DNA of 64,000 bases from Tubiluchus corallicola (lineage: Eukaryota; Animalia; Priapulida), in NCBI GenBank assembly GCA_030141605.1, contig JAQGDQ010000012.1:496001-560000 (forward strand), given 5' to 3'. Within the stretch, counting starts at the first letter, position 1. Each line of letters starts with the position of its first letter. Positions 1,874 to 62,700 of this stretch are shown here, piece by piece. The notes below the pieces were generated by a model that saw nothing but the letters and a program-made list of their open reading frames with translations, was not told the DNA's origin and made no database searches. The translations under genes and the position numbers were made by a program.

Positions 1874-9359
<7,486 letters not shown>

Positions 9360-11359: not shown

Positions 11360-12537
11360 ACAGAGCAGATGGGCGAACATCAAGCTCCTCTGCCAGCAGA
11401 TGGATCAGCAGGCGCAGCAACCCAAAGAAGATATGGAGCGGCAGGCACAGCAACACAGAGAGATGGACGCTATGAGGAAACTGCTTCAGACTAGAACTCT
11501 TGAAGAGAATTCAGCTCAAGCGCCCACCTTCCACCTGCATCAACACTTACAGCTGCCATTCCACCATTTGCTGCTTTTGATCCACTTTCTGAACTGTGGC
11601 CTGACTACTAGTCAAGATTTTGTATCTTCATGGCAGCCAACGCAGTGCCTGACCAACGCCAGGCTCAAGTTTTCCAAACAAATCAGACTGCATGTGTTTA
11701 CAAACAACTGGCAAATCTAGGGACACAACAGTCTCCACCCAAGGATCTCAAAGAACTGACAATTGATGAAATTGTCGACTTTATGAAGGAACAGTTTGAC
11801 CCGAATCGTTTCATACTGCGTGAACGTTTTAAGTTCTGGAGTAACATGCAAAGGAAGCCAGGCGAAACTCCCCATGAGTTAGCAGCCCGCATTCGCCAAG
11901 ACGCTGCTACATGTGACTTTCCTTCAATCCGAAACCCACTAGATGAAGCTCTGAGACAGAGGTTCATATGCTCCATCAATAACGAAGCTGTTTTGAAGGC
12001 TATCTTCAAAATCAAGGATGAAGAGCTGACTTTTGCCCATGCTATCCAAATTGCTGCCAAGACTGAAGACGCGGCAACGGCAGTCAAGGAAACTGTTTAC
12101 GGTCCCAAGCCCAGGCCCGTCAACAAAGTCAAGACGAACCAAAACAAGGGTCAACGTAAGAACCAGCAACAGTCACATTCCACAGACACGGATACAAGTG
12201 CTACTGTTGTGGAAAGGCCCACAAAGTGACTGACTGTCCATACAAAGATGCCAAGTGCCATTTCTGCAACAAGAAAGAACATTTGGAGGCTGTCTGCATG
12301 AAGAAGCAACGACAGCAACAGGACCAAAAATCTGGGAAATCCGTGGGGAGAATCGGGAAAGATGAGCTTGTCAAGGCGATCCTTGTAGAAGTTCCCGACG
12401 ACTCTCCTAGATTGGATGTCAAAGTCAACATCCAAGACCAACAGTTCGCAATGGAACTTGACACTGCAACATCCGGAAATTTTATTTCAGTGCCGGTCTG
12501 GAAGCAACTGGGCAAGCCAAAGCCCAACTCCAACTAA
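11360..12537 (+). mobile_element. Decayed Ty3/gypsy (Mag-like) LTR retrotransposon gag and partial aspartic protease
   Basis: Gag motifs PFAAFDPLSELWPDY*SRF, RERFKFWSNMQRKPGET..ELAARIRQDAATCDF and LRQRFICSINNE. Tandem zinc knuckles CYCCGKAHKVTDC and CHFCNKKEHLEAVC. Protease-like MELDTATSGNFIS. In-frame TAG at 11609-11611, frameshifts near 11520 and 12190, and truncation at 12537. No RT or integrase seen. Confidence 0.88.
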
Positions 12538-38700: not shown

Positions 38701-39849
38701 GGTCCTATGTGTCTGCAATGTTTCCAGGATTGGACTCCATCCCGTGATATGTATGTTATATTCTTCTGTTACCATGTTGTTCACTTTGAGATTTCTTTTT
38801 TCTAGTAATTTTGAACATCCTTTTTTAACAGTATCTGTGCAGAATTTTGAAATGCTAATCCATTCACTATTGTTTGCATATTGTTGGTTTATTAGGAATG
38901 GTTTATAGGAATCTGGTGCAGGATAATAGTGTGATCACCACATAGAAAGGGGGATTTTCTATGGAGGTGGCTTCGTAGTCATGATCTGCAGATGAAACAT
39001 CTTCATTCTGGAGTGCATTGGCTAGGTACAACGGGAAAAGTACTTGACTGGACAGTCACCTGGAGGAATTCTGATGTTAGTTTTCGAAGTTCTTCCTACA
39101 GTGTTGCCTGGTTTTACATGAAGCCTGCATGACATCTTTAAGTAGAATTGTTATCCTGTTGATCTGGTTTTAAAATAGATTTTAAATCATCAAATAGTAT
39201 TCCTCTATCAACAAGAACAAATGCCTTGCTCATATCAGGCAAGCAGTAATACTAACAGAGTAACTGACAGTTATAGCTTTTTTGGTTAAGCAGACATGAT
39301 TAATTCTGTATTGTTCGTTTCTTCACTATATGCGATTTGGGTAACTAGTATACTGTTGGTCAGTCTGTCGTGTATGCGTCTGACCATACAAATTGCCAAA
39401 ATTTTCCGTAGTAGACTTATAGAATAGTTATTTTCCTCAATAGTGTTCCGGTCGGGGGAAGTAATCATGAAAATTCAGTAAACGCAAAGTCATATCTCAC
39501 CTGCGGCCTAAAAGGTATCCCATATTGTTGGTTTGGTCCACCTTCAGAAATGGTGCTGACAAGCCACTAGCGTAGCACTGGCTAGTTTTTTTGCTGGATT
39601 ACTGATGCGTTTACGTGTCTGAAGGCAGATTTCTTTTATTTAGTACCCCACGGGTCATTTGCGGCTTGGCCTCTTGTGCACATAATAATAAATACTTTTA
39701 TGTACAATGCTGTAATGATCATTGTGGATATATTTAATAAATAAAAAAAATATTTGTTGTCAGTATTTTAGAATTCTGCCTGCCCAATGTCTACAATAGA
39801 CGTGACGGGCGTATGATGATGATGAATTGAAATTAGGATCTATGTATTT

Positions 39850-41530
39850 TTCTGGATTGCTTTTCCAGTGTCTATCGAGACGAATCTTAAACTGGACAGG
39901 ATTGGAGGCTTGAACTACAGTGGCAGGCAGCATGTTCCATTCATTGATTACTCGACTTGCAAATGTAAACCTTCTTCTACTCCTCCTTTGTGGAGCTGTT
40001 CTTTTCTTTATTTTGTAGGAGTGACCTCTGGTACCATGATATGTCTGTCGATATTTCGCTGTTGATGGTTTCTGTACTTTTAAGGATACGAAATGTTTGA
40101 ATCAAGTCTTGCATTTTGCATCTATACTTCAGAGTTGTAAGGTCCAGACTTTTTGGTCGTGCAGCATATGGTAAATGAGAAACAACAGGTACGATTCTAG
40201 TAGCTCGACATTGTATACTTTCAATTTTCCTTATCATGTCTTGACGACTTGGGCTCCATATCACAACACCATAATCTAATGTAGGGTGAACCATCGACTT
40301 CTGTAGCTTGGTCATCATAGATCCATCAAGATAAGAAAAGCTACGAATTAATGGAAGGCTGATTAAGGTCAGTCTTCCACGTGCTTTATTAAAAACATTA
40401 TTAATATGTGTTTGAAATTTAAGCATACCATCGATGGTGATACCCAGATCTTTTTCTTCTGTGATGCTTATAATTTCTCTAGAATTCTGTCCATGTGTCA
40501 TTTTGTATGTGTGACCTGCAATATAATGCCTTCCAATAGTCAGGATCTTACACTTTTCAGTGTTAAATTCCATTTGCGATTGGCATACACCATTGGTCAG
40601 CATTGTTAATATTATTCTGCATGAGCTCAAAATCAATCAAGCTTTTCCATATATTTTAGTGTCGTCTGCAAACAGGCTATTACCGCAGTTGAAAACTTCA
40701 GGAAGGTCATATATGTAAATAGTAAATAAAATACTTCGGTCCAAGCATACTTTCTTAGGGTGTACCACTGGTCACATTTGCCCATTCTGATTCATACCCA
40801 TTGACTACTACACATTGCTTTCTCCTACAGAGAAAACTATTAATCCATGTTAGCAGGTGACCACAAATTCCGTATGTCTCAAGTTTTTGCAGCAGTCTCG
40901 CATGGGGAACTCAATCAAACTCTTAAAAAAATTGTAATAGATAACATCAACTTCAATGTTGTTATCAAGTAAATCCACCCATTCTTCAAGTGAAACTAAT
41001 AGGTTTGTAATACAAGATCTACCAGTTCTGAAGCCATGTTGGCTGTCACTAATAAGGTTATGTTCAGTATTGAAGTTGTAGATTTTATCCCTTAGTATTC
41101 CTTATAGCAGTTTACAAACAACTGTTGTCATACTGATAGGTCTGTAATTTTTTGCTAAGTCTCTTTCACTTTTCTTGTGGATAGCAGAAACAGTGGCAAT
41201 TTTCCAGCTCGGTGGTAATATACCACAGGCCAAACTTTGGTTCATTATTTGTAGCATGGGACTGATAAGGATATCTTCATTATTCTTAATTATGCTTGCA
41301 TGGATTCCATCAAGGCCCATAGATTTATTAGCCTTCATTATTTAACTTGTGTACTAAGCTCTAATTTAGTGATGGTACATACATCAAGTTTATGCTCAGT
41401 TACTGGTAGTAATTGAAGAGTTTGACTTGTATCTTCATTTGTGTAAATAGATGTGAAAAAAAATCTATAGTTCATTAGCCTTATTTTGATCAGTAGTGGC
41501 AATACTACCATCTTCTCTTCTTAAAGGTCT
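39850..41530 (-). mobile_element. CR1-clade LINE remnant (reverse transcriptase and C-terminus), 5'-truncated and pseudogenised
   Basis: GLDGIHA...WKIATVSAIHKKSERDLAKNYRPISMTTVVCKLL; QHGFRTGRSCITNL; catalytic SLFADDTKIY near 40660; FNTEKCKIL; EEKDLGITID; RVINEWNMLP...FKIRLDRHW. Stops and frameshifts present. Confidence 0.9.
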
Positions 41531-42637: not shown

Positions 42638-44109
42638 AGGTTCATGCAGATAATTAAATATGGAGCCTTCACATGTACAACAGTGATTTAACTTCATTCA
42701 TCAGACTAGGTTAATGTGTAGTTGCTGTACGCACAGCTGAGTGCAAAGAGGCAGACCAACTGTGTATCATACAGATAGATATTTTTATTACATTTTATTT
42801 TTTTATTTTGTTATTGTTTTTGTTACATGTTACTCAAAATATTATGTTATTAAACGGCGTACTGATTTTATTAACTGAATTTTCTTAACAATTCTTTCTA
42901 TAAGGATAATTTTGGGCCGTGCCTAAATTGTTCCTAAAAATGGTTGATTTTATTAAGCAGCAATTACTGTACAAGTGTAATAGGGAAAAAGCGACAAGAG
43001 GCTGACTGGGGAAAGGTTTTAGGTCGACCACACTGATCTCAACTCTTTTATTCTCAAAACCTACCTTATAAATTCACTCACTGTGGAAAATCTTGGAGAC
43101 AAATTTGTTTAAATTGATTAAATCTAGTTTCTGTGTGATAAGTTTTTCTTTAGTCTGTTTAATTAATTCAGTGTAAGAATGAATGCATGTATGTATTGAC
43201 AAGAAAAGGAACTACTCGTGATGTGCTCAAAAATTTTGAAGTTTGTAGTTATTTACTGTGCCAAATTGTAAAATTATTTGCGAAATTGTGAAAATGTTTG
43301 CGAATTTTGCAAGAATGCCTTGATGCATAAATTTTCGGGCACATAAATTATACTAGCAATAATGGCGTAGGTTTCTTGTATATGCTGTTAAATACAAACA
43401 ATATTATTAACAAGGTACATTACGTGGTAATGTCCACTGAACAGCAACTCATACCAATGATTATGAAAATTGAAGCCATAAATTTCTGTCACAATTTAAC
43501 CTGCTTGTAGGGTGTGTCACAAAAATATCTCTTCGCAAACAAAGGTTTGGAGCTAAATTCAAAAAATATAGTTTGCAACTTTTTTCCAGTTTACACTACA
43601 TTGTAAAAATTATTTTAGGTTCTTTCAGTCCATGAATTTGTATTATAGATATCTGTGTAGGTCTGTTAATTTTAAACACTTTGATATCTTGGTTGAGGTC
43701 AGCCTTTCTGGGTCACACTAGATCAATTTGATCTAAAAGCTCTACTGGGCTTGTGTCACCAGTTCGAATTTTTCTGGTGGCCTTATGTCGATCGCTTTGG
43801 GCAGCAAGGTTTGCTAAAACAATGGATTATCGTAAACTGTCAAAAAAGACCAGTGTTCCGCTATGTTTGCAACCTGTTTCAAGAGAATTCTTGATTTTAA
43901 AAAATTTAAGGCTTTTGTTTTTTTTTCGTAGTGCTCTACTTGGGTATATCTTTTTCTTTGAATGGAAGTGCATCAAACAAGATATTTTCTGACATAGTTT
44001 CAACGTATCAAGTTCAGTGTGAGAGTGTAGATATTGTGCTACAGTGCTACCCACCTGGACGGAGTCATTATCTTGTATCATTTAATTTGATAAATACTGA
44101 AATAGCAAG

Positions 44110-44709
44110 ATGCTGCTAATACTTGAAGAAGAACACAAAAAACATTTAACATTTCTTGACAATCTGGAGTTAGAAACATTACGGGAGTTTTTGCGTATAT
44201 CTATAGAGTTTATTGAGAAAGGAGCAAATGCACGCATGTATCAGGCAGCATCAAATAAACTAGGTGTTGATGCAGAGACTATTCAACATGGTGTTGAAGG
44301 ACTAATGCATCTTTTCATTGAAAGTTGTCGACAGAATATCAGTGAACTGGATTTTCAGGATTCCATGCAAATGCTTGGTTTTAATGAGGTCACTTGCAGT
44401 GAGCTTCTACGTGCATATCTAGAAAATTGCAAAGTAGTTCGAAGCTTAATCGCTGACACTCGATTCAGTTTGCCACATTACCAAGATCTTCAGTGGCGGC
44501 TGGATGTGCAAGTATCGTCTCGCTCATTACGACGGCAGGCTAAGCCAGTTATTTTAATGAAGCTTCATACTGAAGCTCGTGGAAAAAAGGAAGTGAAACT
44601 GTTAGAAACTGACCCCGTTAATCTGATTCACATGACACAAAATCTAGAGGCTGCCTTAGATGAGCTGAAATCTGGACATTGTAGGCGAATAATGCGGAAT
44701 ATTAAGTGA
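44110..44709 (+). CDS. COMMD2: COMM domain-containing protein 2 (Commander/CCC complex), single coding exon, 199 aa
   Basis: Colinear with recalled human COMMD2: MLLxLxEEHK.HL.FL, QHGVEGL, ISELDFQDS, COMM domain LPHYQDLQWRLDVQVSSRSLRRQ, TDPVNL and C-terminal HCRRIMRNIK. AATAAA at 44938-44943. Confidence 0.96.
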   Translation: MLLILEEEHKKHLTFLDNLELETLREFLRISIEFIEKGANARMYQAASNKLGVDAETIQHGVEGLMHLFIESCRQNISELDFQDSMQMLGFNEVTCSELLRAYLENCKVVRSLIADTRFSLPHYQDLQWRLDVQVSSRSLRRQAKPVILMKLHTEARGKKEVKLLETDPVNLIHMTQNLEAALDELKSGHCRRIMRNIK

Positions 44710-47700
44710 CGTCGTCTAAGCTCTTGATAAACACTTAATTTTTTAAGATAGTAATTGAACATTAGAAAAAATTTTAAAAGGAACTCAAGTGTCCTATAAT
44801 TAAGAAACTGTATGATGTTCACGTTGTTCGCTTTCCAAAACTTTATTTAGACTCAACGTATTTTATTGATTATGATAAAAATAACAATTAGCAACTTAAT
44901 TATACGTAATCTTAATTCCACGGTTAATTAGTGACAGAATAAACAAACTTAAATGTTTTTATGAAATGTTATGCCGTGTAATTGTTTATTAAACATAGCT
45001 GGAGTAAGAAAGCATAAAAGCTGAACTAAGTCTGAATTTGAACTAGCGATCTTTAAATATTTGTAACAGTCCTTCGTGATTAGGTCAGTACTAATTTATT
45101 TCTAGTAAATTTTCATTTTTACCAGTTTTATGTAATTACCAGAGTAATTACTACCTGATCTCGTTAATTTTTTATTTAATGTTGTTATCTTTGAACAGCT
45201 TGTCAGTAAATAATTCCATGATTAATTGAAATTGCTTATTGATGGAATGAATAATAATTAGCGACAATTATTCAGTGATTGACCCACAGTTATTCTATGC
45301 TCCAAATTCATTAAAATTAAAAAATAAGCTAATCAGTTCCCTAGTGTGAGTACTGTAACCAATCATTATTGACAGCACTTTCTAGATTCTTAAGGGAGAG
45401 ACTGGCTCAAGACTTTCGCTTTGGTTCGCAAACTGAGACTGATACAGCTACTACTTTCTAATATAGATAATACATTTGATATAAATAAGATCTGTCACAA
45501 AACACAAAAACTTTTGCAGTTACGCAAAGAACCATTCAGTGTCTTCTATGCGATCCATTGTAATTTGCTGTTGTGTCAGAATATTTTTTGTGAAAATTTA
45601 ATGTATTAGCAATGCATGACCAATGCAGTGTATAAATTGTTTATAGTAATTATAAATTAAAATCTAATGATCAGGTTCATGTAGTAAGATATGTTGCATG
45701 TTTTATAAACACTTATCTCGTTTCTTCCAAAAGATACGACTAAACATGTGGCAAATTGGTCGAAATATTGACACTTCCTCCTTGAAAACTCGTCAAATTT
45801 CTTTTGTCCAGTTTATAAATAATTATTCACAGCTTTGCTTAACCTGTTTCTGCAGGAGATCAACCGTGTATGTAGACATTTAAAGCAAGGAAACTAACAC
45901 GAACTATGATGTCAAAAAAGTAATATTGAAACTTTATCAAAGTCATTTTGTACAAATGGTAGAGAAATCCTTTAAAGATTTTTACACCAAATTATTCTCA
46001 CAGTATTGGTGCATATATAAAAGAAGGTATTCATTTAATACAGATTTTTACTATTCTACAGTAGATCACAATAACAGTTTCTTAAACAAATTTCGTTTCA
46101 TTGACCTGTATACAAACATAAATAAAAAAATATTTCTACACTAAAATGGCTGTGTAAATTAAAATTTTGAAAATCGGACGTGAACTTAGCTAACTATATG
46201 TGACAGATTACTTATCTAACACAAACAGGCCTACATCCTCTGTTGAACAACCTGTACTAGCATGATAAAATTTTAGCCATGAATCTTCAGTTTTAAGAGC
46301 GCTATTATTGCTCATAATTCTAGACCTTCTTAAATAATTACAGTCATGCTCATTTATATACAAAACACAAAATTATGTACATAATAAATTATGGCTAGCT
46401 ACCTTGGATTTCACACAAATTTCAAAGCATTATGTTTTACAATAAAGGCATAGTTTCAGTTGTTCCTCTCACAACCTCCAAGTTGGTCTATCAAAAAAAA
46501 TGTCAACACGAGTCTCACAACATCAATTTGCACCTACAATGATCTTGTAATATTTATTGCGCATAAGTATAAAAGGCCACTAACACGTCTTTGAAACAAT
46601 GTGTGCTTGTAAAACCAAAACCGTCCACAAGTCTGCATAGTTAAAACTGTATAATTTTTTTGTTTCTTACAAAAACAAGCACTAAATACATTGGACATTT
46701 TTTGTTCTGGTACCAAAATACCAGCAATTGTTTAGAAAATACCAAGAATTTAATTTTACTACTTCTTACCAACTTCTCTGCTTCAAAAACTAGTAAGGCA
46801 TTTGTCAAATTTGTCAAACTCCGATAGTAGCTCGTGGAAACTGTCATTTTGCTTGCGGTTTTATATGTTGCCAAACCCAGATTGATGTTTGGAAGAGCCA
46901 TGTACAGGACTTGAACGTAACTTCAATTCACTCTTGCAAAGTCTATGACAACCGTCAGTTTACAGTTGTAGAAGCGTGACAAAAATAATTGCAAACTGTA
47001 ACAGCCATTTTCTCAAGATTATGTTTTCCGTGTGCTACCTTGCACCATCGTGGATTATCTCAGTTTAGAAATAACATAGAGTAATGAACTTGGTGTCAAA
47101 ATGATCCTCATGAAATAGAGACTCAGGATATGTGAATAACTAAAAAAGCTTATATGCCAACTTCCGGACGTTTTTGTTGTACAAGGACACAATTATTATT
47201 ATGGAGGCACACAAAATGTAACACAAGGAGAGCACAACAATAAATGTCAAAAGCACCTGGAGAAGAAATGAAATGTATTTACAAGTTGTGTAATAAACGC
47301 AACAGTATTTACAATAAAACCATTAAAATACATTTACTGCATATATTACAATTGATTTCTCTCAAAATGTTCACTATTAAATAGTACACTATTCACAGAA
47401 ATCAAGCTCGCATTTAGAAAAGACTGAATGACTAGGACAACGAGCTAAATGTTCACATTCGGACACTGCTGTCAATGCGACTATACACAAGATTAGTTTT
47501 ATTGAATACACCAGCATGTGCTGTACCCATTCCACAATGCACTGTAGCAGCCTCATGCAAAACTATAAATCACGGATCTTGTGCACATATGCTAATAGGC
47601 CCATTCACATAAAGTTACCACAAACTTGGATCAAAATAGTAATGACTTATTTGGCTTACAAACCATGAAATACATGCAAAAAATCACTTTACATTGAAAT

Positions 47701-47724: not shown

Positions 47725-50700
47725 CTATACTTGTGTATGCACTGCACCATTTTTAATGCGCAAAGCAAGAACATGCAGCTCAGCATCATCATCAGTAAGA
47801 TTACAGTCACTCTCTGTGTACGATGCATTCGTAGACGTATAGCCACCCACTGAAACTGACATGTCGTCAAGTCCTGATATAGCACTAGCTGCTTCTGAAT
47901 TATATTCACTATCCATCTGTAGGCTGTTTCTAGCATTAGGTTCATTACATGGAACACAGTCATCTTCGGGTGGTGGAGAACGTGGTGGCGGCGGCGGCGG
48001 TGCCTCACCAGCAACAATGTTATTTTGATTACTATTTTGTTCTAGCAAGTCATCGCCAACATCATAATTATGGTCGGGTAAATACTGATTAGGATGTCTA
48101 TCATAATTACGCTGTTCAACTGTGCCATCATCCTCATCAGCGTAATTAAGTCCAGCAATTAGTGCACCAATATCTGGCTGCGGTAAGTTATTTTGATAAT
48201 CTAGCAGATTATCATCATCGAATTCAAATTCATTGTCAGCGAATTCCGAGTCACCCACATATTCACTTTCATCATCTATCATATCAGGATAACTAACTTC
48301 ATCTTCCTGTAAAAGGATGATAAACATTACAAGGTGCCTACGGCAATAACAGCTAAACCTGTACATGCAAGTAAGAATCTTAAGAATTTCATTTTTTCAG
48401 TTAACTGCATTAAAATCAATGGATCAAAACGATTTTCATTCATTAGATAATTTTTCAGAGCAATTAAAAAATCAAGGAACACATTTTCCAAACAAATGAG
48501 TTAGTGTTAAAGAATAAGAAAATTACTTAATTTACTACATATTAATCTGAGAAACAGTATCTCAACTACAAGAGCCAAATAACTTGTATTGATTTTATAA
48601 TAACCGCAGATTTTACAATACATTACAGAATTGCACCTTTTAGCTAGCAATGGCTTTAAAGTACAGCTAGTTCATTAGCTGGTTCATTCACAAACCTGTT
48701 CACTCAAAAATGGTTGCATTTCCTTCGGCTGTTCTTCTACGCAAGCATGTGTGTTTGATTCATTGCTGTGCAAGCTAGAAGTGTTACAGTCTGGTAACTC
48801 TTTCATCGATACTTCAGAGAGCTTGCCGAGGTTACTCCCATAAGCCCAATCTGAAGCATCCCAGTAATAACCTATAAAAATACTCAAACGTTATAATTCG
48901 CATACTAAAATAAGCAGCAAAGGATTAATGGCTTTGTTTAAATCATGTCTAAAGAAATAATTATATCATGAACAGGTAAGGCAAAATATTTTTTCACCTT
49001 TGCACTTCACTTCACGACTAACTGTAGTTGCATGAAACACCAAATCGCTGATTAAACCACTATTTTATTGACCACCATTAAACAATAATGGACAGTTTTC
49101 ACATATAATGTGTACATATGCTATCATGCTACCAGCTAACACTCGGACAATAAGCAAAGATTTTAAAGACACAGTAAGTACAGCGTATATCTTTTACAAC
49201 ACAAGATATAAAAAATATGCATAGCTCTTTTCGATGACATTCGAAACTTTCAGGGTGTTTGAAAGAAGTTTGTAATTGCCTGAAATCTTTTAACTTAAAC
49301 TAAAATGCTGAATTACAGAGAACTGGAAATGTCTCTGCATATTTTTTACTTATTTGGCACAAGTAAATACTTAATATAAGCCACACACATACTTCCAACG
49401 TCTTGTCCATGCAAGAATGCAAACAAAAGAAAAAACCATAATCTTAACCGCATACACATTTCAGTTATTTTATCGAATGCAAAATACAGTGTAACAACAT
49501 ACTACAAGCATTACAAATGATAACAAGTGTTTAACGCAGTCAAATCATGCAACATATATGATTAAAAATGCTTCCCACTCCCTAAGCTAACATTGTACTA
49601 ATTCACTATTATTTGAATTTGGATCATAAAATGTGTACAAATTAAAATGCACTGTTGCAAACTACATATAAACAATTATTAGCTTATAACATTGTGGTTG
49701 TGACTGGCAGCGATGCACTAAAGTAGCATAAAACCAAGGGCACGGGATAGAAAACATACATTCATCATGTAAAGAACACTAACAAGAATATGTCGTTATG
49801 CTTTTCACAATAAAAAGACACGCTACATTTCTATAAAGGAAAGAAACATGAATTTGTTCCATTCACACTGTTGCTTTGGCACTCTATGCACCAAATCGCA
49901 ATTTAGACATTAGAAAAATCATTCATTACCTAACTGCCATTAAAAAGGTACTGTACATAAAATGAAAAGCACCTGAGGTACAGGTAAAAGGTCTTTACGT
50001 GACTACATTTTTCTTTTGAACTGCAACAGTGTGAACTTTAGGAAAAACAAAATGTGTTCTAGTGTCCCAGGTAAGTGACAGACATTTTTCCATAGTACGC
50101 AGCACATTTTCAACACGAGGCTTTCAACATCTTTTACATTGGGATTACTGTACTAACATTACAACAACAAACATACCTGCACTTCTACCACAACGACGAG
50201 CATTGCTTAGTGGAACATCTTGTACATGGAAATAGAGAAGGCATTATGACTTAAAAAATCACAGTATCAGTAAGAAGGAAAGAATAACAAAAGTGTGTCA
50301 CAAATTCACTGCATTCTGAGAAACAACACTGCATTTGTAAACAACAAAAGTGTGTGAAAAATGAAGTGCTACATCAAATATAACTTTTTAACATACTTTA
50401 AAAGTATTAATAATAACTGTTACATATTATATTCACATGTTAGCTACTAATTTCATACACGTTTTTAGGGCTGCAGTTTCCATGCTACAATGCACTAACA
50501 GTTACAAAAAGATTTATTGTATAGTCATGCTTAAAGATCATGCTACTTTTTATGCAGTATGCATAATAAAGAAAATGTACATGCCAGCCATGAATTCTGT
50601 AACATCACAGACCTCAAATGTCGTTTAAACAGTCAGGTGTCAAAAAGGGCTATATTGCTACAGCTACTAAATATTGTCCAATAATTGTCTCAGAACAGGC

Positions 50701-53700
50701 AAATAAGGGTATTCATTTTTTAAATTCTACCAATTTCTAAATAAGTGAGACAAGGACAAGTTTTGGGAGAGACAATTTTCTTAGAACATATTTCATTCGT
50801 TAAGAGCAAGCCATTCAGTCCATACAAATGCAAGCAGAGCACATAGCTTAATATATACTCAATAAAATGGGTTATTGTAAAAAACATTTCACAATCAGAT
50901 CACGATGCATACAGACCATGGAAATGCCTTCAGTTACGACTATGGTATCCTAAAGTCTTATTCAGTATAATTGCTGAAAAGTACACTTTGAAACAGATGA
51001 AGGGAGAACATGCAATGAAGCTGTTCTATTTCATATGCACATGCTTGAATATGCTGCCTTGGCTAATAAAGCTAACATTACGAAAGTAACTGTAGTCAGT
51101 CCAAGTTCATAACAGGTTAACTTTACAAATAAGAAAACTGAAACATGCACTAACAACAAACAGTGCAGTAGTGCACAATTTTTACTACCTTCCTTTTCGA
51201 AATTGTTCAGCGGATATAAAATGTTTTTTCTACAATAGGGAATGCCACCTGGTCCACGCAGCTGCACGACTACAAGGTACCGCAAGAAAGCAACAAATAC
51301 AAAATAGCATCAGAATAACAAACTTATCAAGCTTAGTACCAATCCGATTTTGTAAATATGCAATTATATGAATATTCAAGTATTACAGCATTATAACACA
51401 ATTATACTCAAATATGCATAAGACAAAATTTGGTCATCAGTGTGGTTTTATAATGGTGTATTCCATCCTATATATAAAATGTGACATTTTTAACTGCCAT
51501 TTAAACTCAACTTTGGTAATATTTTATAATTGGTTTTTGTAACACTAATACGAGCAGAATTTTCTATATGCTAAGACAAATTACAACAAAAAAGCTATTA
51601 TTTTCCAATTTCGCTGCCTTTTCAGGTTTCTACATCACAGGTGTTGCTGGTAAAAGTTGAATATACTGCAATGAAATTTCATATGCAAGATTTCTAGTCA
51701 AATAATACTTGGATGAAGTGAAAAAAGATTCTACAAGCGGTATTCCACTAAAATCAAATTTGAATTTTACTCCATACAAAACTCGAAACGTTTTTCTGCA
51801 AATGAATTTTACAATGTATTACTTCAAATGAAAGTACAAGGCTGGGTCATTCTCTGGTACTTGCGACACAGCTTCTTCAATGCAAGTTAATTGATAATTA
51901 TTTATGGTAACATATTTATATTAACTTGCAAACCAGCACAATTGCAGTGTATGATAAAATTGTGCTACTAAATTAAGAATTAAAATGCTGGGCTATTGTA
52001 TGATATTGTGAATTATCAATCAAAATTTTTGCTATGGCAAACTAAAAATGAAATGTATCCCCAATTAATACATCAAAGGTCCAAACCTTTTGTCCAATCA
52101 CCAACAGTGATTTGCAACCGTGCACGTTTTCACTTAATATGATCTTAATTGTAGAATTACCTTAACTGTAAAATGAATATAAATTTGTTATTTGGAAATA
52201 CTGGCCTAAATCATTTACAAATAAAAAAACAAATACAGCAGAATAGAGGAAATTCAACTAACCAGGCAAGTCTTCTTCTGATACAGCAGGGAGTCCAGAT
52301 GCTGGAACTGGTGTGCCAATTTGTGAACGTGACCTTGGTGGCGTTGCAATGGCTAAAGCAATTGACGTCGGTTCTGATAAGACAAAAACACATTTAAATT
52401 AGGCAAGAAAAGTAGCACAATCAGCAAACAAATAATATGTATAATTATTCTTACTAAAATCAAAAATGGAGCAAATCAGGTACAAGAACCCTTGAAATTC
52501 ACAAAAAAGCACCGTCTGCAATAGCAAACTGATAATATTAATAAAATGAATCACATGCTTACGATTTCGACGCTTTCCTGCATCCCAGCATTTGCCAGGA
52601 TCAACGGGAATATTTGGAGTTTGCCCCAACAAGGGTTGTCGCAAGGACTCTGGCTCACGTGCACAATAAACCTAAAGAAACGTGCAGCAGAAATGTGGTG
52701 AATGAATATGAAAGCACAGAAAAACAATGACATGTCATGTCAAAAAGTACAACATGTCCTCCTTTATTTTACTTTCAATCAACCAGAAGTCCATATACAA
52801 TAAACCTATTTCAGTATTTATAAAGACACATTTTATAGTCAGTGAATTAACACTGAATTAGAGCATAGCAAGATGATTTAATATTATTATATACATCTAC
52901 TCGTATCATGATTAACATTTCGTGTATATATTGTCATTATAGATTATAGTTACTGAGTGAATTTTGAGTACTTTTGCAGTGATAAATTGTTTTAATATTA
53001 CTATTGTATTATCAAAAACATTTCAGACTCATACGCAATTTACAATTTCTCCAGCACATTTTATTAGGACTTGTACAGTTCATGAAGTTTGTGTAAATGA
53101 ATAAAATTGTTGAAACAAATGTAATTTTAGAGGTTATCCATCTCTACTACTCAACCATAAAGCCAATGGAATAGCAATAGGTTTCAGTTTTCTTTTCCTG
53201 TCAAACCAGATTCTGATATGCCTTAAGCTCAAAAACATTGTCGAGAAAGTCAGAAATTTTTGTATCTGCACTACACTTAAAGAAACTGTCATGCTGCCTG
53301 GTTGTCCAGTTCTTTTGTCCTCAATCACACCTAATAAACGACTATTTTTTACAATTTTATATTTTGGAAATTGTAAAAATGATCATTCTTTGGGAGAAGC
53401 ATTACTTGAGCAGCACAAGGCAACCTGGCACTCTGGCAGTGAGACTTAAAAAACAAGAGTGATCAAAAAACTGAAAATTCAACCACGCAGCAAAGTAAGC
53501 AGCACAGCATTAAGATACCAGGGACGTCACCCTACAACTTTCGCACACTTTACCTCATTACTAATATTTTTTCATCTCTCGTATACAAAGTAGATGTGGA
53601 CAAAGCTATGATTTGAGTTTAACATTAAAAATGCATATAGATGTCTAAAGAGAAATCAGTCAATCAATCAGACAACCACTAGTAATAAACAATAACTACA

Positions 53701-56700
53701 AAGCCAGCTACTCACATTTTTGTTTTGCACAAAGTTTCGGTCAAGTCGCCTGTTTTCTTCCTTAGTTGCATATCCTTGGTTAATGTTGTTTAAAGTTGGC
53801 TGTTGTTTAACATAAGAAAGTGGTCGAGGCGGCACATTTGGCTTTGATGGAACACGTTCATTATCAAAAACATTCATCGCTAAACCCTCCGAGTTATTAA
53901 TATCTTGAGACTTTCGTCTGTGGCGACATACCCGATATATTACAAACACCAAAGCCAGGATAACGATGACGGCAACAGCAATTATGGGACCTGGAAAGAA
54001 AACATGCTGAAATCAGTTTGCTGTCTTAATAAATGAACGAGCATTGAATGCACAATATATTCAAAAGCTGTAGTTTCACAACTTACAAACAAACTAAGTG
54101 GAAATGCTGTTTACGAACCTGGTTTACTACAAGTAAAATACGTCCAAAATGAAAGCGTTTATTTATTTAGTCGTTTATATGCACTGTGCATCTGAAAGCA
54201 AAAGTGGGAGACTTACCTACATATGTCCAATGGTTGACACCAGCTGCCGTTATTTTTGGAATGCTAGTGAAGTTTTCACAGTTAATACCTGTCATATAGT
54301 GATCACAGTGACATCTGTAAAAGGTACAAGAATCAAATATCTTTCATACTATGTATATAATGCAATATATAATGCAGTACAGGCCTTACAGTTATGTAGG
54401 TATGGGTATGAAAACAACCCAAAATTTGTCACACACTCTAGAGAAAGTTCGAGGAAAGGAAAGCGAAAGCGCAGCAAGTTCGATTTGCACGAAAATAAAC
54501 AATTTGCCAGATCAGACAATATACGAATAGCAGAAAATGTGTAATAATAACAAAATAAAAAAAGTATCTAAATTCTGCATTTAATAAGAAGCTGCAAAAC
54601 TCACTTGTAAGAACCATGTGTGTTCTCGCATGTGCCACCATTCAGGCATGGATTGCGTACACACTCGTCAATATCATACTGGCACACTGGTCCTTCAAAA
54701 CCCGTACAAACACATTTTGGTCCTACTGGCCCCTCTGTACAAGGCATGCTGTTGTGACATGGATTTGGCTGGCAGTAAAATCCGTAATCACATTGTTTCC
54801 CTGTCATCCGTCTGGGACACTCGCATGTATAATCATTGCCTGAAGAAACAAACTGTGATGCAAAGGAACAAGCTCATAAAAATGTGGGGCTATATGTATT
54901 TCTGATTATATTTATATTCACATCTAACATGGGGATCTTAATTGTACTCCTTAAAAAAATTAAAATTCACCAGGAATGTACATTCAGGGCATTGCAAAAA
55001 ACAATGCACAAACAAAAGCTATGAACACATTAAAATTACACCATAAATGTCCAGTAAGAGTGCCTTTATATTGGAATGTACACAAACGAAGTTACTGTAG
55101 TTAATCTCTTCTTATGTGATCTCAAGTTCAACCGCATTTTTTTGTGATTTGATCAGCAAATTTCAGGACATCAATATACTTCTACTGCACTGTTTTTTGG
55201 AACATCCTGTATATTGCCGCTTGCCAGTAAACCCATTAATTTTTATTCTGTTTGGATATTATCGCTCATTCTTATCGATTATAGCTGGATGAGTGTCACG
55301 AAAAACATAGTAAGCCGAAACCGAAGTGACAAAACATTCTCCTAAAATGACCATTAAGTCCAAGTCTATAACTGAAACATTATCACAAAAACTAACAACT
55401 TGTCAGAGGTAGCAAATAGACAACTTCGGTTAAGTTTCATAAAATTTTTAACATTCCATGAAAATAAATTTCCCTTCCCTGGTTCAGCAATGTCAAATGA
55501 TTTTCAGAAAAAAATTAGCAAATAACTCTTGGAAACAATGTCATTTCATAAATAAACAATAGGAACAAAAACGCTCACTTGTTATGTTATTCTTAAATAC
55601 ATACTTAAATTGTGGCACGTTCCACCATTGTGACACGGATAAGAGGCACAAGGATCAGTGTCTAGCTCGCAATATTCCCCTTTGAAACGAGGTTCGATGC
55701 ACTCACAATGGAAATGATTAGGACCAGTTTCCACGCAAGTGCCACCATTTAAGCATGGCCGTTGTCCGCAAACTCCTAACACCAGAGTACGCTGACATTG
55801 AAATGATATGTTCACTAACCTGCCAAAAAATAGTTAGCCAATAAAGCATTAGCTGCAATAATGATATAAACTGCTACTACTTTAAGCTATTTTCTGCAGA
55901 ATTCATTCATTTAACATGATCTCAGTAACATAAAGCTATTTTAGGGTATAATTTATAACTATAATTATACATATTACTATAAAACTTCATTACAATTTTT
56001 TATCTTAACATTTGGAACATGCGGAGTGACTTTTAGAGAAAAAATTAAATACAATATAACAGGTATTCAATGTTTAACAGTTAATATTTTACTAATAGGC
56101 CCAGGCCAATACATTTGATGCAATTTTAGTTTTGTTTGTCATTTTTTTCTTTTGAGTTTTGTATCACGAATGTATGTTATGTACATTGCCTCCCATTGCT
56201 AATTCTGTTTAATTTTGTTATTTAGCTTTGATTTTTATTGCTAAATTTATTTTTGCTCTTATTTTGTTTTATTACGTTACAACAATAATTTATATTTCGT
56301 TTTGCTACTCATTTTGAGTTCTGCTACATAAATGCAAGTGCATGTTGGTCATATAATTGCAATAAGTTGCCATTACTCGCATTTTTATTTCTGGTTGAGT
56401 TTTATCGCTAAATTTCTATTTTTGCACTTATTTTGCATTATTACAATTGGATTATAAGATTTATTTGCTGCTATAATTATTAGTTTTACAAGTACTTTGT
56501 TTTTATTTGCCAACATTTTGTTCAAATAAAATGCCTTCTTTGCTAGCTGTTAGTTAATATACTAACAATTTTTTCTAATTATAACATTATTTTTGATATA
56601 AACCTTTGTTATAATTAATTAATTTATTGTTATGCCATAAGTTGCATGTATAATGCTATAAGCAGCCACTAGTACACGCCATTTTTTGCAAAATTTACTC

Positions 56701-59700
56701 ACGTACCTTCGAACCTCTCCCACTTTATTAGCACCAGCTCTTGGCAAATTGATCTTGTCTATTTTTAGGTCAGCAAGACATCCCTTAAAACCTTTAGTCA
56801 CAGACGTGCGTCCACCACTAAGTTCAGCTACCTCTGCGCCAAAGAACACGTCATGGCTATTCAGATTTAAGACATCGTTTGTTCCTGGCACGCTGCCAAG
56901 TGCAGAAAACTTGCCATCGACAATTAGCTCTGCCTGCTTCTGGTTGCGATCAACAGTAATCTCATGCCACTGACCATCATTCACGTATATGTGATTCACA
57001 CGAACAAGGCCTTCACCACTCCCACAATCAAAGCGATACTGAACAAGGCCATTTACGATCTGTAACCATTAGTAACTCATTAAGTTCTGCAATAATTTGA
57101 CCAGTGTGCTAAATGATACATAAAAGCAAAATACAAACTCTTAACATCATGTAAAGTTAAAGATTGGTATTGTTGTCAAACAAGAGACACAACACATTCA
57201 GGTAAGTAGCAAAATATACTGCACCTAGTTGCAATAACACCAAACAGGCTATCAGAAAATTAAATTGTAGAAATCTATTTAACTAAGTTCAAAGTATGAT
57301 TAAGTTTACTAAAATTTAGAAAACTCAGGTAACAAGGTGCCTCTATTTGTGCTTCATTATTTTGTGTTTTAAACAAAAAACAGTGTCCTTGTTATATAGA
57401 TATATCAAGATTAGCAAAGATTATAATTACAAATATACACATGAAAAGAATCCTACCTCCAAAATGCTGTAGTCAACTCTGCCTGAAGTGTACATGAGAT
57501 TTCCACTATCAGCAATAGTTCGCACACTCAGAGACAGGCTAAGTCTTCGATCTATCAGATTAACCAGAGTATATCTTAAATAACTCGTACCATTGAGGCT
57601 CATTGGCTTCTTCTCTGAAATAACAAGTGACACAGTTAGCATTATCACTAACAGCTTCAACATGATGTCAAGAGAATGCATGAACATTATGTAGACAGCT
57701 ACGAGTTATTTGAACTGCCATTTTCAAATTTTTATCTGAATTTTTATCGGCACTGTAATTGTACAATGTGGTCTGATAAAGTGTGTACTGGAAATCAGCA
57801 CACACCTGGACCTGATTCTGAAAACTTTATTATCTGCCTTCACCTGGCAATGTATGTTTGCTTAAACCAAACGTAACACTCACATAATCACAAGCTGGGT
57901 ACATATGATGTTCAAAATTATAGCATGTTAACCACAGTATGTTATCAAATGACATACTATGCCAACATGACAAACATATTAGCTACAAGCGTAAAACGTG
58001 TCTTATCTGAATGAGGTCAATTTCAAGTGTAAACTACAGCAGTAAAAGCTCAAAAAAGGACTGAAGACAAAATAAGGCTAGACGTGAAAATGTAATTTAG
58101 AAAGTGCTGATAACCAAAAACTGTTGAAAAGCATTGTACATGCACAAATGAGCAATTAGGCGTATTAGTTTTGGTGTGACATCACTGTCATCTCTAGCAC
58201 CTTTAACAACGCAAGTGTATAAGAAGTAAAACATAAAATAAAATACGTATTACGAATACATCAGAAATACACCAAATTATACACATCACAGATGGCCAAA
58301 AATAATTTTTTAACACACGTAGATCTAGTAAGAAGGCAAGCAAATTCACTTATTAAACTGTAGCTGTATGTAATTATGAGACCTGGCATGGTGTTTCACT
58401 AGGCTGTATGACTAATATTGTGCCAAGTAGGGCTTACTCTCGCGATCAAATCTGTGATCTACAAGTGAGCTGCTAGCCATAACTTTATGAGTTAATACAT
58501 GCATTAAAGCTAATAATTAACTGTTTTGGCCAAACTTTTTTCTTGTGAATTACTTTTAGTCTAGGTTATGCCTATGCCTTTTAGTCTAGGTAATAATAGT
58601 TAGCCTATTATTATTATTATTGTTGTTGTTGTTGTTGTTATTATTATTATTATTATTATCATCATATATTATATTATTATTATTATCATAGATACTGGTA
58701 CAGAGCAATGCTGCTATGATAATAACTGCTTTAGTATTACTACAGTAACTCACAAAAATATTCCAGATAAGGCCATACTAACTCATTTGAACCTACAATT
58801 TCTTAAGTGCGCTTTCATTAGGCTTACACAACTTATGGCTTTTGTGCAAATGAGTGAAATGCTTGTAATTTCAGGGTTTATCCATGTCTACTACTCAATC
58901 AGATAGCCAAAAGAACAGCAGTAAGTTTCATTTTTCTTTTTTCCTGAACTACCAGTATCCCTAGTCTGAATACGCTCAAAACACTTGTCAGTAAAGAGCA
59001 AAATACAAATTCTCATGCCTTTTCGGCTTCCAGTTGTTTTGTGTCAATTACACCTAAGAATCCACCATCCTTTTACAATTTCACCATTTAGAAAACATAA
59101 ATATGGGCAATCTTTGTCAGATGCACTAACTGAGCAGCACAAGACAAACTGGCGCTCTGGCAGTAAAATGTTTAAAAAGCAGGAATGGACAGAAAAAAAT
59201 TTAACCACGCTGCAATAATAACCCAGCGTGATACCAGTGATGTTATGCTAAGGCTTTCACACGCTGTACCTCATTTCTAATTTTTTTTCATTTATTGCAT
59301 GTAGTGCATTGAAGTATTGCATGGACAAAGCTATGATTTGAGGTTAACATTAAAAATGCCTTCAGCATTACTTCAATAATTCTATTCTATTCTTCCGCAA
59401 TTCAGAGAAATACTGTACAACAAACAGCTTTTGTTTTGCATTTGTACAAACTCATAGACACTGTAATATCTAAACAGCTTGTAATTCACAAAATTATCTC
59501 CAGACAGTTGACTGCAAAACGTTGAGCGCAAGTTAAGAGCTACAATTTTAGATAGTTTCACAAAACTACAGTAGGTAGCGCTTAAAAGACTCACAGTTAT
59601 AGACTCAGTCGCTTAACTTACTCAAAAACGCTTGGTACCAAGCACTTATATTCAAATGTACATAAAAACTGTCAGTAATTGACTCAAATAACTCTGCATA

Positions 59701-62700
59701 ATTGACTCAATATTTTTGCTTCACATGCTTCAATAAGACACTTTCCTGTGACTAATAAGCTTTTATGACTTTTATGTCATCTTAGTTCGCTTTTGTCCTA
59801 TACTATACATAGAAACAATCATGTTAAGTACCATTTTGTTTAGAAACAGGAACGTTTATTATGCCCTAATATGCTAGCCTAATGTTTGCTCTAACCCGCC
59901 GGTCTAATGCAATTAACCTCAATACCCAAGAATTCCTGGAAGCTAAACATTTAATCACTTGTTAAGCAGTTTGCTTTTGAAGCTCTGCCTGTCTTTGCCA
60001 GAGTTTAATCAGTTAGGTCTTGCTGTTATGCCAAGGATGCAGGTACGGTACAGTAAGCACCTCACAATAGCAAGCTGGAGCTTAGGCGAAACTACAGACG
60101 AAGCTACTTGCGGGGAAACACGGGCACCACCAACAGTTTAAGCAAGCCAAGCACTAAGTATTTTACGAGAATCTGTGCATCATACAACAACAGATTTTCA
60201 ACGTCTTTCTCATTATGAGAATTTTGTGAGCCAAGTTTTTCACAATAAGATGAAGCAGCCGACTTTGAAGGAATTTTTGTAATTTTTGCAAATAAATAAA
60301 CTTGCGTGATTTAGGAAAGTGTACTCTTTAATTTATTGCTAATTCACTTATGTAAGTTAATATTTTAAAATACTTTTCTAATTTTTAACTGCACAAAGGA
60401 ATTTAGGCATTACTTCGTTCCTAAAATTCATTAAAAAGCTTTGCAGTGTATAGTATGCTGGTGACTCATACTTCTGTACCAGTAATACTACACCCGTCAG
60501 TTAACTGGGCAAAACACTTCGCTCCCAAGATGAGTCTATTGAGCGGCGCCTACTGTATATCAAACTGGCAAGTAAAAAAACTGTATTAAGTTGGAGCTAC
60601 AGAACTGATTCTTCAAAATACTTCAAGAATGAAATGTTGATTGTTATACAATATAATTAAAAACTTACTCTCTAAGCAGTGATCATCTATGCAGTTTTTA
60701 TCTACGTCTTGTTCACAGGTGGGACCTGTCTTTCCATCCTGACAGACACACATGTAACCCACAGCAGACATGACAGGCACACAGATCTTATAAGATGGGC
60801 AAGGTTGCCTAGAGCATTCGTTAATCTCAAGCTCGCATTTCTCTCCTGTTAAAAATGTTTATACAAATTTGTCACAACAAAGAAAATAATGCTTTGTAAA
60901 CAGAAAGAAGATTATACTTAGCATGAAAAGGTACATATTCTCAGTTTCTTTTTGAATTTTGAATTACTTTTTATTAAGTTCTGCATGTTTACAGTATGAT
61001 TTATTGTACGCAATCATAGTGGTATGTTATAAAAAAATGCATTCTTTTACTCCTTTTTTTAATGTTAATCAGTTATAAAGAATATTAACTGAAGTCCACG
61101 ATATCCAAAGCTGTATCATTAAATAAATGTATTAACTGAACAAAGCAGGTGGTTTAAGGTACAAAGCATATACATATGACTAGATTAGCAGTAATTACCT
61201 CCATAGCCTTCAAGGCAGTAACAGTCGTGATCACGCTTGTGGACTGGAGAAACAAAACTAGTACTTGGTGTCACAACACTCACAACTTCCAGTTCATCCA
61301 GCATTAGTTTTTCACGACACATCCCTTGATGGCAAGTGTCAGCATTGCAGATCTCTGGCACTAAACCGATGATGTCTATGCCCATGGATTCTTCCATGGT
61401 ACGTAATGCATCAGCATTCAATTTCCGCCGCAAGACAATTGGTTTGTAGAAGCTATTTTCCTTCCTTCGAACAGCAAAGAGTACATCCAGGTCAGATGTT
61501 TTACGTTTAAATCGACCACTGCTTAGTGCTGTCTGTTGAATGCTGACTATGTATACATCTCTAGAGCGCACCATTAGCTCGTTCCGAACAGCACGGATAA
61601 AATGTTGTTTGTGAGCCAAAAGAAACTGCTCTGGAGTGACATCGGCAATTTGAATGCTAACACTATGTTGCAACATGTCTTCCGAGATCAAGATGACGGT
61701 AATATACACCTCTCCATAAGAAACGTATTTACCATCTGATACGCTGACGTTGACTTTATATTCACCCACATCTAAACCTTTGTGAGCTTTTATATAGCCT
61801 GCATTGTCAATATCAAAAACATGCCCATAAGGTGGCAACACCTGATATGATAATGTATCATATACATCTGCATCAGTTGCCTTCACCTTTCCAACAATTC
61901 CACCCGGAAATTCATCAAGGTAAGAATTGACACTAGCACGTAAACCACTAACGACGGGTGGATACTGACTTTCTTCAATCACATTTACTTTTACCCAAGT
62001 GTCAGAAAAGAGTGGTGGTACACCGTTATCAAAAACTCGAACTTGCAATGTGTATTGGCTTCGTATTTTGTAATCAAACTTCATAGCTGTTCTTAATGTG
62101 CCCTCTGGCACCATACGAAATTCGTGAGCATCGTTACCAGAAATGATATCGAAAGTAAATGGATCAGCATTTGGGGTGACATCATCATCGGTGACAGTGA
62201 ATCGCATTAGGCTCAAACCTATTGGTCGGTCCTCCTAAAAAATGTAATGTAACTGCTTGCAAACAAAACAAGATTAACACAGACTCAGAATTTCATTTTA
62301 AAGCCTTTGCATGTACAATTACATTTGCCTTTACCATTTCATTCACACTGGTAAAAGAATAATCCAAAGATATACTAACATATGCATCCATGTCAGCAAG
62401 TACACTAATCCCCTTCCCTGTGCATCTTCTTTACAAGCATATAACATATGTTGACAAAAATGTACCTGTACAATTACACTGTAGTTTGTTTCGCTGAATT
62501 TTGGTGGATTGTCGTTAGCATCCAGTAGCTCAATGTTCACATGTACAAAACTAGACAAAGGCGGTTTGCCACTGTCTGTTGCATGAACTTGAAGTGTGTA
62601 GCTGTCTCTCTGTAAATTTAACAGTGGAGATCAAAAGTTTGCAAAATACATTACATAATGATTGCTATTTTATGCAATGACTTATGAAACAAAAAATTAT

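What the first reader, a model, noticed from the sequence alone, without database searches (positions are those of the whole stretch)
48872..52262. Array of five phase-compatible cassette exons/microexons in one intron of the Fat-like cytoplasmic tail
Seen: the phase-1 intron between exon 52373-52263 and the conserved GYYWDASDW exon (48871) contains five AG...GT-bounded segments, all multiples of 3. They are 81 nt (51269-51189, VVQLRGPGGIPYCRKNILYPLNNFEKE), 42 nt (50218-50177, DVPLSNARRCGRSA), 48 nt (50020-49973, contains a stop), 9 nt (49401-49393, DVG) and 24 nt (49021-48998, VSREVKCK). Known: vertebrate FAT1 has alternative cytoplasmic inserts (+12, +32, +8TR), and from recall the +12 insert sits directly before GYHWDTSDW; FAT3 is also alternatively spliced in its tail. 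Inference: this intron may be an ancient bilaterian splicing hotspot that has been expanded here into a combinatorial tail-switching module (up to 16 in-frame combinations plus truncated forms). The peptides do not resemble the vertebrate inserts, so the position may be homologous while the sequences arose independently.
Basis: partly seen in the sequence, partly recalled or inferred. Interest (0 to 1): 0.85.

Follow-up and report, generated by a model that had tools for sequence, protein, structure and literature searches.

The report
Ancient splice switch in Fat tail
An invertebrate's giant Fat cell-adhesion gene has small exons at the same spot of its inner tail where vertebrate FAT1 and FAT3 are alternatively spliced: two are joined exon-to-exon in a close relative's assembled sequence (likely RNA), a third likely matches a short basic mini-exon predicted in molluscs, ribbon worms and acorn worms, two remain unproven, and including them would likely change the protein's partners and position in the cell.

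Summary
The five AG..GT segments exist as described, but their splice signals alone do not beat chance except for the 42-nt one. Outside evidence sorts them. A spliced contig from a ~92%-identical relative joins upstream exon -> 81-nt -> 12 extra nt -> 42-nt, and the three readable changes in the 81-nt exon are synonymous. The 24-nt segment (VSREVKCK) ranks first of 103 candidates against a profile of basic mini-exons found at this site in other animals. The 9-nt and the stop-bearing 48-nt segments have no direct support. The gene is a Fat1/3-type cadherin. In 12 of 16 animal groups examined (molluscs, nemertean, hemichordate, crinoid, tick, catfish), predicted isoforms with and without inserts differ at exactly this point before G-YHWD, with a phase-1 signature. 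So the 'ancient hotspot' idea is supported; 'expanded here' and '16 combinations' are not shown, since Lineus has about four pieces and five forms. Likely function: splitting the acidic-GYxWD motif, as shown for vertebrate Fat1/Fat3. A known vertebrate event, with a depth across bilaterians that I did not find in print.

The parts
53716..53990 (-). Transmembrane/juxtamembrane exon of the Fat1/3-like gene
   Evidence: Splice sites and open frame; the loose end of an X2 contig reads into the next exon, i.e. spliced (table 7, compared by eye)
52563..52671 (-). Tail exon, phase 0 to 1
52263..52373 (-). Upstream constitutive exon ending in the acidic ...SEEDLP + G (phase 1)
   Evidence: joined to the 81-nt exon in an X2 contig
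51189..51269 (-). 81-nt exon (27 aa, VVQLRG...FEKE): shown spliced in a relative; alternative status inferred
   Evidence: X2 contig; 3 of 3 readable differences synonymous (4 further differences were not listed by the tool)
51009..51149 (-). Two TGCATG (RBFOX-type) elements downstream of the 81-nt exon (5' ends at 51149 and 51014)
   Evidence: function inferred
50219..50231 (-). 13 nt just 5' of the 42-nt exon; best positional match to the 12 extra nt (VPRS) in the relative's contig, likely an upstream alternative acceptor used there; the window has no AG in front of it
   Evidence: one of 2 matches with up to 4 mismatches in 3,391 nt
50177..50218 (-). 42-nt exon (DVPLSNARRCGRSA): shown spliced in a relative; strongest donor; weak AAG acceptor
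   Evidence: 1 difference in 43 nt; rank 1 of 139 open segments by splice score
49973..50020 (-). 48-nt candidate with a stop after 8 residues (stop at 49997-49995): possible truncating/poison exon, unconfirmed
   Evidence: decoys as good at 2.6 per 3.3 kb; truncating forms at this site in 4 of 12 groups
49393..49401 (-). 9-nt candidate microexon (DVG): unconfirmed; weak acceptor with 2 UGC, 39-nt AG-free zone, good donor; acceptor resembles that of the 42-nt exon
48998..49021 (-). 24-nt microexon candidate (VSREVKCK), likely orthologue of the basic K/R-rich microexon before GYHWD
   Evidence: first of 36 in this intron, above all 67 in other introns; 2 of 1,123 window-wide reach its score, itself included
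48696..48871 (-). Downstream exon starting G-YYWDASDW
   Evidence: 58% identity over 48 aa to scallop Fat1-like; joined to the last exon in X2
47725..48306 (-). Last coding exon, ending HTQV* (PDZ-ligand-like; motif class recalled)
   Evidence: covered by X2 contigs at about 92% identity

Best explanation
This intron is the invertebrate counterpart of the alternatively spliced site in the FAT1/FAT3 tail; it holds two exons joined in a close relative's spliced contig (81 and 42 nt) and likely a third, ancient basic microexon (24 nt), and their inclusion would likely push the acidic SEEDLP stretch away from the GYxWD motif and add positive charge, changing the tail's partners and the protein's place in the cell. 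Shown: the gene is Fat1/3-type; the site is where predicted isoforms differ across bilaterians; the 81-nt and 42-nt pieces are exons in a close relative. Inferred: that they are skipped in some cells; that the 24-nt piece is used; that tissue-specific factors control them (RBFOX-type TGCATG elements, UGC-rich weak acceptors of the eMIC/SRRM234 kind); that the effect on binding and localisation parallels vertebrate Fat1(+12) and Fat3(+32). The longer exons turn over by lineage while the last, short basic exon persists. The 9-nt (about 40%) and 48-nt (about 25%) segments may be further microexon and truncating exon, or decoys.
For: Spliced X2 contig: upstream exon -> 81-nt -> 12 nt -> 42-nt, frame kept. 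3 of 3 readable changes in the 81-nt exon are third-position synonymous. 42-nt exon has 1 difference in 43 nt against 19 in 257 nt for the last exon. Insert and skip isoforms at this residue in 12 of 16 groups, 32 of 32 inserts GNN-started against a 0.32 background (Venturia dropped; inserts within a group are not independent). A short cassette ending in K sits last before the motif in 10 of those 12 groups. The 24-nt peptide ranks first of 103 intronic candidates. TGC within -20..-3 of the acceptor: 4 of 5 segments, 1 of 14 constitutive exons, 85 of 337 decoys. GCATG 10 in 3,391 nt against 9 in 8,896 nt of other introns. Vertebrate precedent: Fat3 exons 24.1/24.2 break DNXYH and abolish Kif5B binding (PMC5082931, passages); FAT1(+12) moves from leading edge to cell contacts (PMC10297709; PMC12721327); isoform switch in maturing retinal neurons (PMC8865054).
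Against: Only one small run (X2, RNA status guessed by the tool, about 8% diverged, contigs only) shows junctions, and it shows the inclusion path alone; skipping in this lineage is not observed. The 12 extra nt have no AG-flanked match in the window, so the 42-nt exon's acceptor here is a weak AAG and its use is inferred. The 24-nt peptide is less basic than its presumed orthologues (3 of 8 K/R; 7.3 bits, below 11 of 12 leave-one-out training scores), the profile was designed after seeing it, and a final K is partly favoured by the AAG/gt donor. The vertebrate DNxYH and Kif5-ID patterns are absent from the window and from all 15 invertebrate groups, so the partner switched cannot simply be assumed to be Kif5B. 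Homologue isoforms are automatic RefSeq/GenBank models. Four arthropod/annelid groups (Owenia, Drosophila, Venturia, Anopheles) show no insert.
Confidence: 0.72

Rival explanations
1. The 81-nt and 42-nt pieces are ordinary constitutive exons of this lineage's divergent tail, and the other three segments are chance pseudo-exons; nothing is switched.
For: Only the inclusion path was seen; splice scores of the 48-, 9- and 24-nt segments are matched by several decoys; this organism's tail is divergent from all homologues.
Against: Splice scores of the 81-nt exon (4.2/3.1 bits) are low against constitutive sites; the site is alternative in 12 of 16 groups; the 24-nt peptide fits the basic microexon profile.
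Confidence: 0.13
2. All five are real and freely combined into 16 in-frame tails plus truncated forms, a combinatorial code.
For: All keep phase 1 and 16 of 32 combinations are open; 4 of 5 have UGC near the acceptor; truncating forms exist at this site in Mytilus, Glandiceps, Ixodes, Antedon and vertebrate FAT1(+8TR) (PMC10297709); 4-5 aa cassettes occur in Lineus, Mytilus and Dreissena.
Against: No support for the 9-nt and 48-nt segments beyond signals; the one contig has 81 and 42 together; Lineus, with about four pieces, shows 5 forms among 12 isoform sequences; in mouse Fat3 the two exons go in together (PMC5082931).
Confidence: 0.08
3. The intron is a site of repeated, independent exon birth: position is shared, but every cassette, including the 24-nt one, arose separately, and the basic character is convergent or an effect of AT-rich, AAG-ending exons.
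For: Longer inserts share no visible sequence between phyla; the 81-nt peptide found no homologue (weak); hotspots of new exons are a described pattern (PMC8797185, section 16); the 9-nt and 42-nt acceptors look like local duplicates (only pair of 13,695 with 3 or fewer mismatches in 18 nt).
Against: Decoys from the same AT-rich DNA almost never reach the 24-nt score; length 6-9 aa, R near position 3, final K and last position in the intron recur over bivalves, gastropods, chiton, nemertean and hemichordate.
Confidence: 0.3

Closest known systems
Vertebrate FAT1(+12), (+32), (+8TR) (Braun et al. 2007, seen only through PMC10297709, PMC12721327, PMC5082931)
   Same: Same position, directly before G-YHWD (catfish Fat1a isoforms); several stackable small exons; a truncating form; 36-nt exon activated by RBFOX2, MBNL, QK and RBPMS (PMC12721327).
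   Different: No sequence likeness of the inserts; the window lacks DNxYH; 3-5 candidate exons here against two in-frame blocks (20 + 12 aa) in catfish.
Mouse Fat3 exons 24.1/24.2 and the Kif5 interaction domain (PMC5082931, PMC8865054)
   Same: Insert between an acidic stretch and the YHWD motif; developmental switch.
   Different: Fat3's exons are 56 and 40 nt and go in together; the Kif5-ID pattern is not met in the window or in 15 invertebrate groups.
Automatic isoform sets of 'protocadherin Fat 1-like' in molluscs, Lineus, Glandiceps, Antedon, Ixodes (e.g. XP_064636193-205, XP_077983800-805, XP_071951310-315)
   Same: Insert/skip forms at the same residue, a short basic last cassette, extra lineage-specific exons before it, truncated forms.
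   Different: Their basic cassettes are richer in K/R and in 6 of 12 groups match K[KR]x[KR]; the window's does not. They are unstudied gene models.
eMIC/SRRM234-dependent neural microexons (PMC8797185)
   Same: Short in-frame exons with weak 3' sites and UGC close to the acceptor (9-nt and 24-nt best).
   Different: Neural specificity and eMIC dependence untested; only 1 CTAAC in the intron; that paper's main text has no Fat/kug passage.

Membership tests
Fat1/2/3 (Fat-like/Kugelei) cadherins | Cadherin repeats followed by EGF, one laminin-G, EGFs, TM | tested here: met
   Pfam Cadherin, Laminin_G_2, EGF in that order; tblastn exon order. Only the C-terminal 1,333 aa lie in the window.
Fat1/2/3 (Fat-like/Kugelei) cadherins | Groups with Fat1/3 orthologues, not with more distant Fat-family proteins | tested here: met
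   Inside the 100/100 clade of 32 rows and the 97/99 protostome-type clade; the four outgroup rows are unnamed; 3 short-aligning rows were left out
Fat1/2/3 (Fat-like/Kugelei) cadherins | Tail motif YxWDxSDW and C-terminal HTxV | tested here: met
   GYYWDASDW and HTQV*; homologues
FAT1/FAT3 tail splice site | Phase-1 intron immediately before G-YHWD | tested here: met
   Window exon phases; homologue position and phase inferred from proteins only, no genomic alignment
FAT1/FAT3 tail splice site | Both inclusion and skipping occur in the organism | tested here: inconclusive
   Inclusion of 81+42 seen in a relative; no contig over the skip junction
Kif5 interaction domain / DNXYH motif | Q[ST]xxSxQxxxxD[DG]xxY or DNxYH across the junction | tested here: not met
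   Regex absent from the window's skip form; present only in catfish among 16 groups
eMIC/SRRM234 microexons | UGC near a weak 3' site, long AG-free zone | tested here: inconclusive
   UGC in 4 of 5 against 85 of 337 decoys; AG-free zones 51, 29, 13, 39, 24 nt, within the constitutive range 9-85
eMIC/SRRM234 microexons | Neuron-specific inclusion that depends on eMIC | not testable with these tools
   No tissue RNA available
Basic Fat tail microexon (molluscs, nemerteans, hemichordate) | 6-9 aa, GNN start, K/R-rich, ends in K, last before the motif | tested here: met
   24-nt segment: 8 aa, 3 K/R, final K, 126 nt before the acceptor; top profile score. Weak member; expression untested

The most novel reading that the evidence does not exclude
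The last common ancestor of protostomes and deuterostomes already regulated Fat-like cadherin by a splice switch at this one tail position, with a short basic microexon as its core. That microexon survives in molluscs, nemerteans, hemichordates, crinoids and this deep-branching protostome, the vertebrate +12 exon is its positional heir, and lineages have repeatedly added exons in front of it. It would be one of the few alternative-splicing events kept at the same position across bilaterians, working as an acidic-to-basic charge switch (in molluscs possibly also a nuclear-import signal for the cleaved tail).
Probability: 0.45. Interest if true: 0.68.

Novelty: new member of a known kind. Interest (0 to 1): 0.5.

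Why it matters
Alternative exons rarely stay at the same position between protostomes and vertebrates; a fly-mouse comparison found only four eMIC exons in equivalent positions (PMC8797185). The FAT1/FAT3 tail switch controls migration versus contact localisation and kinesin transport in mammals and has been treated as a vertebrate event in the papers I saw. If the site is bilaterian-wide, tractable invertebrates (snails, bivalves, nemerteans, echinoderms) can be used to ask what the switch did ancestrally, and the lack of the DNxYH/Kif5 pattern outside vertebrates predicts a different, older partner for the acidic-YxWD motif.

Tried and rejected
No whole genome is held, so no intron alignment or paralogue search. 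No RNA holder listed for the stretch. X1 covers introns and exons alike and showed no exon joints among the rows shown (28 joints not shown), so I treated it as DNA; it may be the window's source and is not independent. X2 has no cover over 48791-50169, so nothing on the 48-, 9- and 24-nt segments or the skip junction. Contig depths (28.8 for the 81+42 contig, 56.5 TM exon, 108.7 last exon) and the contig's start exactly 30 nt before the upstream exon's end would fit partial inclusion, but the tool says contig depth cannot rank parts and X2 contigs also break inside exons, so I do not count them. A 42-nt X2 match at 50848-50889 (8 differences, loose ends on both sides) was rejected as chance. 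No AG-12nt-GT segment matching the relative's extra 12 nt. Protein searches with the last exon and the 81-nt peptide found nothing (weak). Local alignments of the five segments with flanks show no duplication above random intron pieces. No in-frame internal donor rescues the 48-nt segment (read by eye). Venturia was counted by the script as insert-bearing but is a 7-aa deletion downstream and was dropped. Literature searches without a hit: Fat1+microexon+conserved+invertebrate, hotspot+amphioxus+Fat1, Fat-like+cadherin+microexon; searches listed nothing on invertebrate tail splicing by title or abstract start. Braun 2007 is not held. No structure prediction: the region is a short-motif, likely disordered tail.
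Full report
Observation. The 15 exons of the gene in the window join to an open frame of 4,002 nt ending HTQV*. The 3,391-nt intron is the longest of the gene's 14 in the window. The pattern alone proves little: it holds 370 AG..GT segments of 3n length (9-99 nt), 139 open. With a matrix from the gene's own splice sites, only the 42-nt segment stands out (rank 1 of 139; 0.4 equal decoys per 3.3 kb of other introns); the others are matched by 2.6 to 6.5 decoys per 3.3 kb.

The gene. Pfam finds cadherin, laminin-G and EGF domains in the order of a Fat1/3-type protein. A 36-row tree on 724 extracellular residues puts it among protostome Fat-like proteins, outside the annelid+nemertean+mollusc clade and outside insects/crustaceans, with no supported sister. 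No close relative is in the protein collections (best 47% over this region), and no genome is held.

RNA-type evidence. Two runs were listed. X1 covers introns and behaves as DNA. X2 carries the same species label, differs at about 8% of coding bases, and is spliced: it joins the last two exons at a GT..AG intron, and its TM-exon contig runs into the next exon. One 164-nt X2 contig reads upstream exon -> 81-nt exon -> 12 extra nt -> 42-nt exon, in frame. Of 7 differences in the 81-nt exon, 3 can be read and all 3 are synonymous third positions; the 42-nt exon has 1 difference in 43 nt. The 12 extra nt (VPRS) have no AG/GT-flanked match in the window; one of only two matches with up to 4 mismatches is the 13 nt directly in front of the 42-nt exon, so the relative likely uses an acceptor 12 nt further up that the window lacks. 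X2 gives nothing on the other three segments or on skipping.

The site in other animals. Fat-like proteins and their cluster members were fetched. In 16 groups with several sequences the script found insert and skip forms in 13; Venturia is a downstream deletion and was dropped, leaving 12: Lineus, Mytilus, Liolophura, scallops, oysters, Haliotis, Dreissena, Babylonia, Glandiceps, Antedon, Ixodes and catfish. Owenia, Drosophila, Venturia and Anopheles show none. All 32 distinct inserts begin with G, A, V, D or E, the residues of GNN codons (background 0.32), as expected of one shared phase-1 intron after a G; inserts within a group are not independent. In 10 of the 12 groups the last cassette is short and ends in K (e.g. 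VKRGKKK, ASRKKRNK, APQQKK, VIRGSQVIKIK). Longer lineage-specific pieces come before it (Lineus 17, 5 and 12 aa; Glandiceps 241 aa; Antedon 527 aa), and 4 groups have truncated forms. These are automatic models, not curated isoforms.

The 24-nt segment. A 7-column profile from 12 such cassettes of 6-9 aa gives VSREVKCK 7.3 bits: first of 36 open 18-27-nt candidates in this intron (next 0.5), above all 67 in the other introns (best 3.6), and reached by 2 of 1,123 window-wide, itself included. It is also the last candidate before the motif exon. Against this: it scores below 11 of 12 training peptides left out in turn, the test was built after seeing it, and a final K is partly favoured by the donor consensus. 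I put it at about 70% real.

The 9-nt and 48-nt segments. The 9-nt one has a good donor, a weak acceptor with two UGC and a 39-nt AG-free zone, features listed for eMIC exons (PMC8797185, passage). Its acceptor context matches that of the 42-nt exon at 15 of 18 nt, the only such pair among 13,695 AG pairs in the intron, though wider flanks do not align. The 48-nt one would stop after 8 residues, like vertebrate FAT1(+8TR) in length, and as a cassette would likely trigger decay (established knowledge). Neither has direct support (about 40% and 25%).

Mechanism. In mouse Fat3 the inserted exons split DNXYH and abolish Kif5B binding, with a switch as retinal neurons mature (PMC5082931 and PMC8865054, passages). 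FAT1(+12) leaves the leading edge for cell contacts, and its 36-nt exon is activated by RBPMS, RBFOX2, MBNL and QK (PMC10297709, PMC12721327, passages; also regulated in reprogramming, PMC4403257). By analogy, inclusion here would separate the acidic stretch from the YxWD motif and add basic residues. The exact DNxYH and Kif5-ID patterns are absent from the window and from the 15 invertebrate groups, so this works like the vertebrate switch but is not a Kif5-ID by the published definition. Two TGCATG lie downstream of the 81-nt exon, and GCATG is 10 in 3,391 nt against 9 in 8,896 nt of other introns; UGC near the acceptor is in 4 of 5 segments, 1 of 14 constitutive exons and 85 of 337 decoys. 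Both are hints only.

Novelty. The vertebrate event is known, and recurrent exon birth in orthologous genes is a described pattern (PMC8797185 section 16). I found no paper on this site outside vertebrates (empty; seen as listings); the library lacks most subscription papers and I saw no supplements. The window is a new member of a known kind, not a unique expansion. The notable part is the apparent bilaterian depth of the site and the recurring basic microexon.

Verdict. Real site; 2 of 5 exons shown in a relative, 1 likely, 2 open; hotspot supported; 16-way code not shown. Interest 0.5.

Noticed in passing
window 50219-50231 (-): The relative's contig has 12 in-frame nt (VPRS) in front of the 42-nt exon; the window's matching stretch is 13 nt with no upstream AG, suggesting acceptor turnover between very close taxa.
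   Followed up: partly
window 50231-50214 and 49414-49397 (-): Acceptor contexts of the 42-nt and 9-nt segments match at 15 of 18 nt, the only such pair among 13,695; possible local duplication.
   Followed up: partly
   Followed up: no
proteins P0332/P0212 (Venturia), P0345/P0340 (Anopheles): A separate extracellular 8-9 aa insert (APD..NGPC) differs between insect Fat-like isoforms; it matches earlier finding e1-9136319 and lies outside this window.
   Followed up: no
mollusc proteins, e.g. P0186, P0245, P0278, P0290: The basic cassette matches the monopartite NLS-like pattern K[KR]x[KR] (pattern recalled) in 6 of 12 groups; could steer a cleaved tail to the nucleus.
   Followed up: partly
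window 44101-44709 (+); 4388-9359 (-); 18236-18754, 23399-23683, 32295-32915 (-): Neighbours: a single-ORF COMM-domain gene, an FHA/forkhead (FoxK-like) gene, and two similar membrane-transporter genes in tandem (bile-acid-transporter-like by recall).
   Followed up: no
window 11343-12537 (+), 39760-40636 (-), 46900-47500, 59600-60800: Retroelement fragments (gag-like, LINE RT-like by eye) and high-copy repeats (X1 depth in the thousands).
   Followed up: no
whole gene: The organism's Fat falls outside annelids, nemerteans, molluscs and pancrustaceans with no close relative in the collections; an under-sampled protostome lineage.
   Followed up: partly
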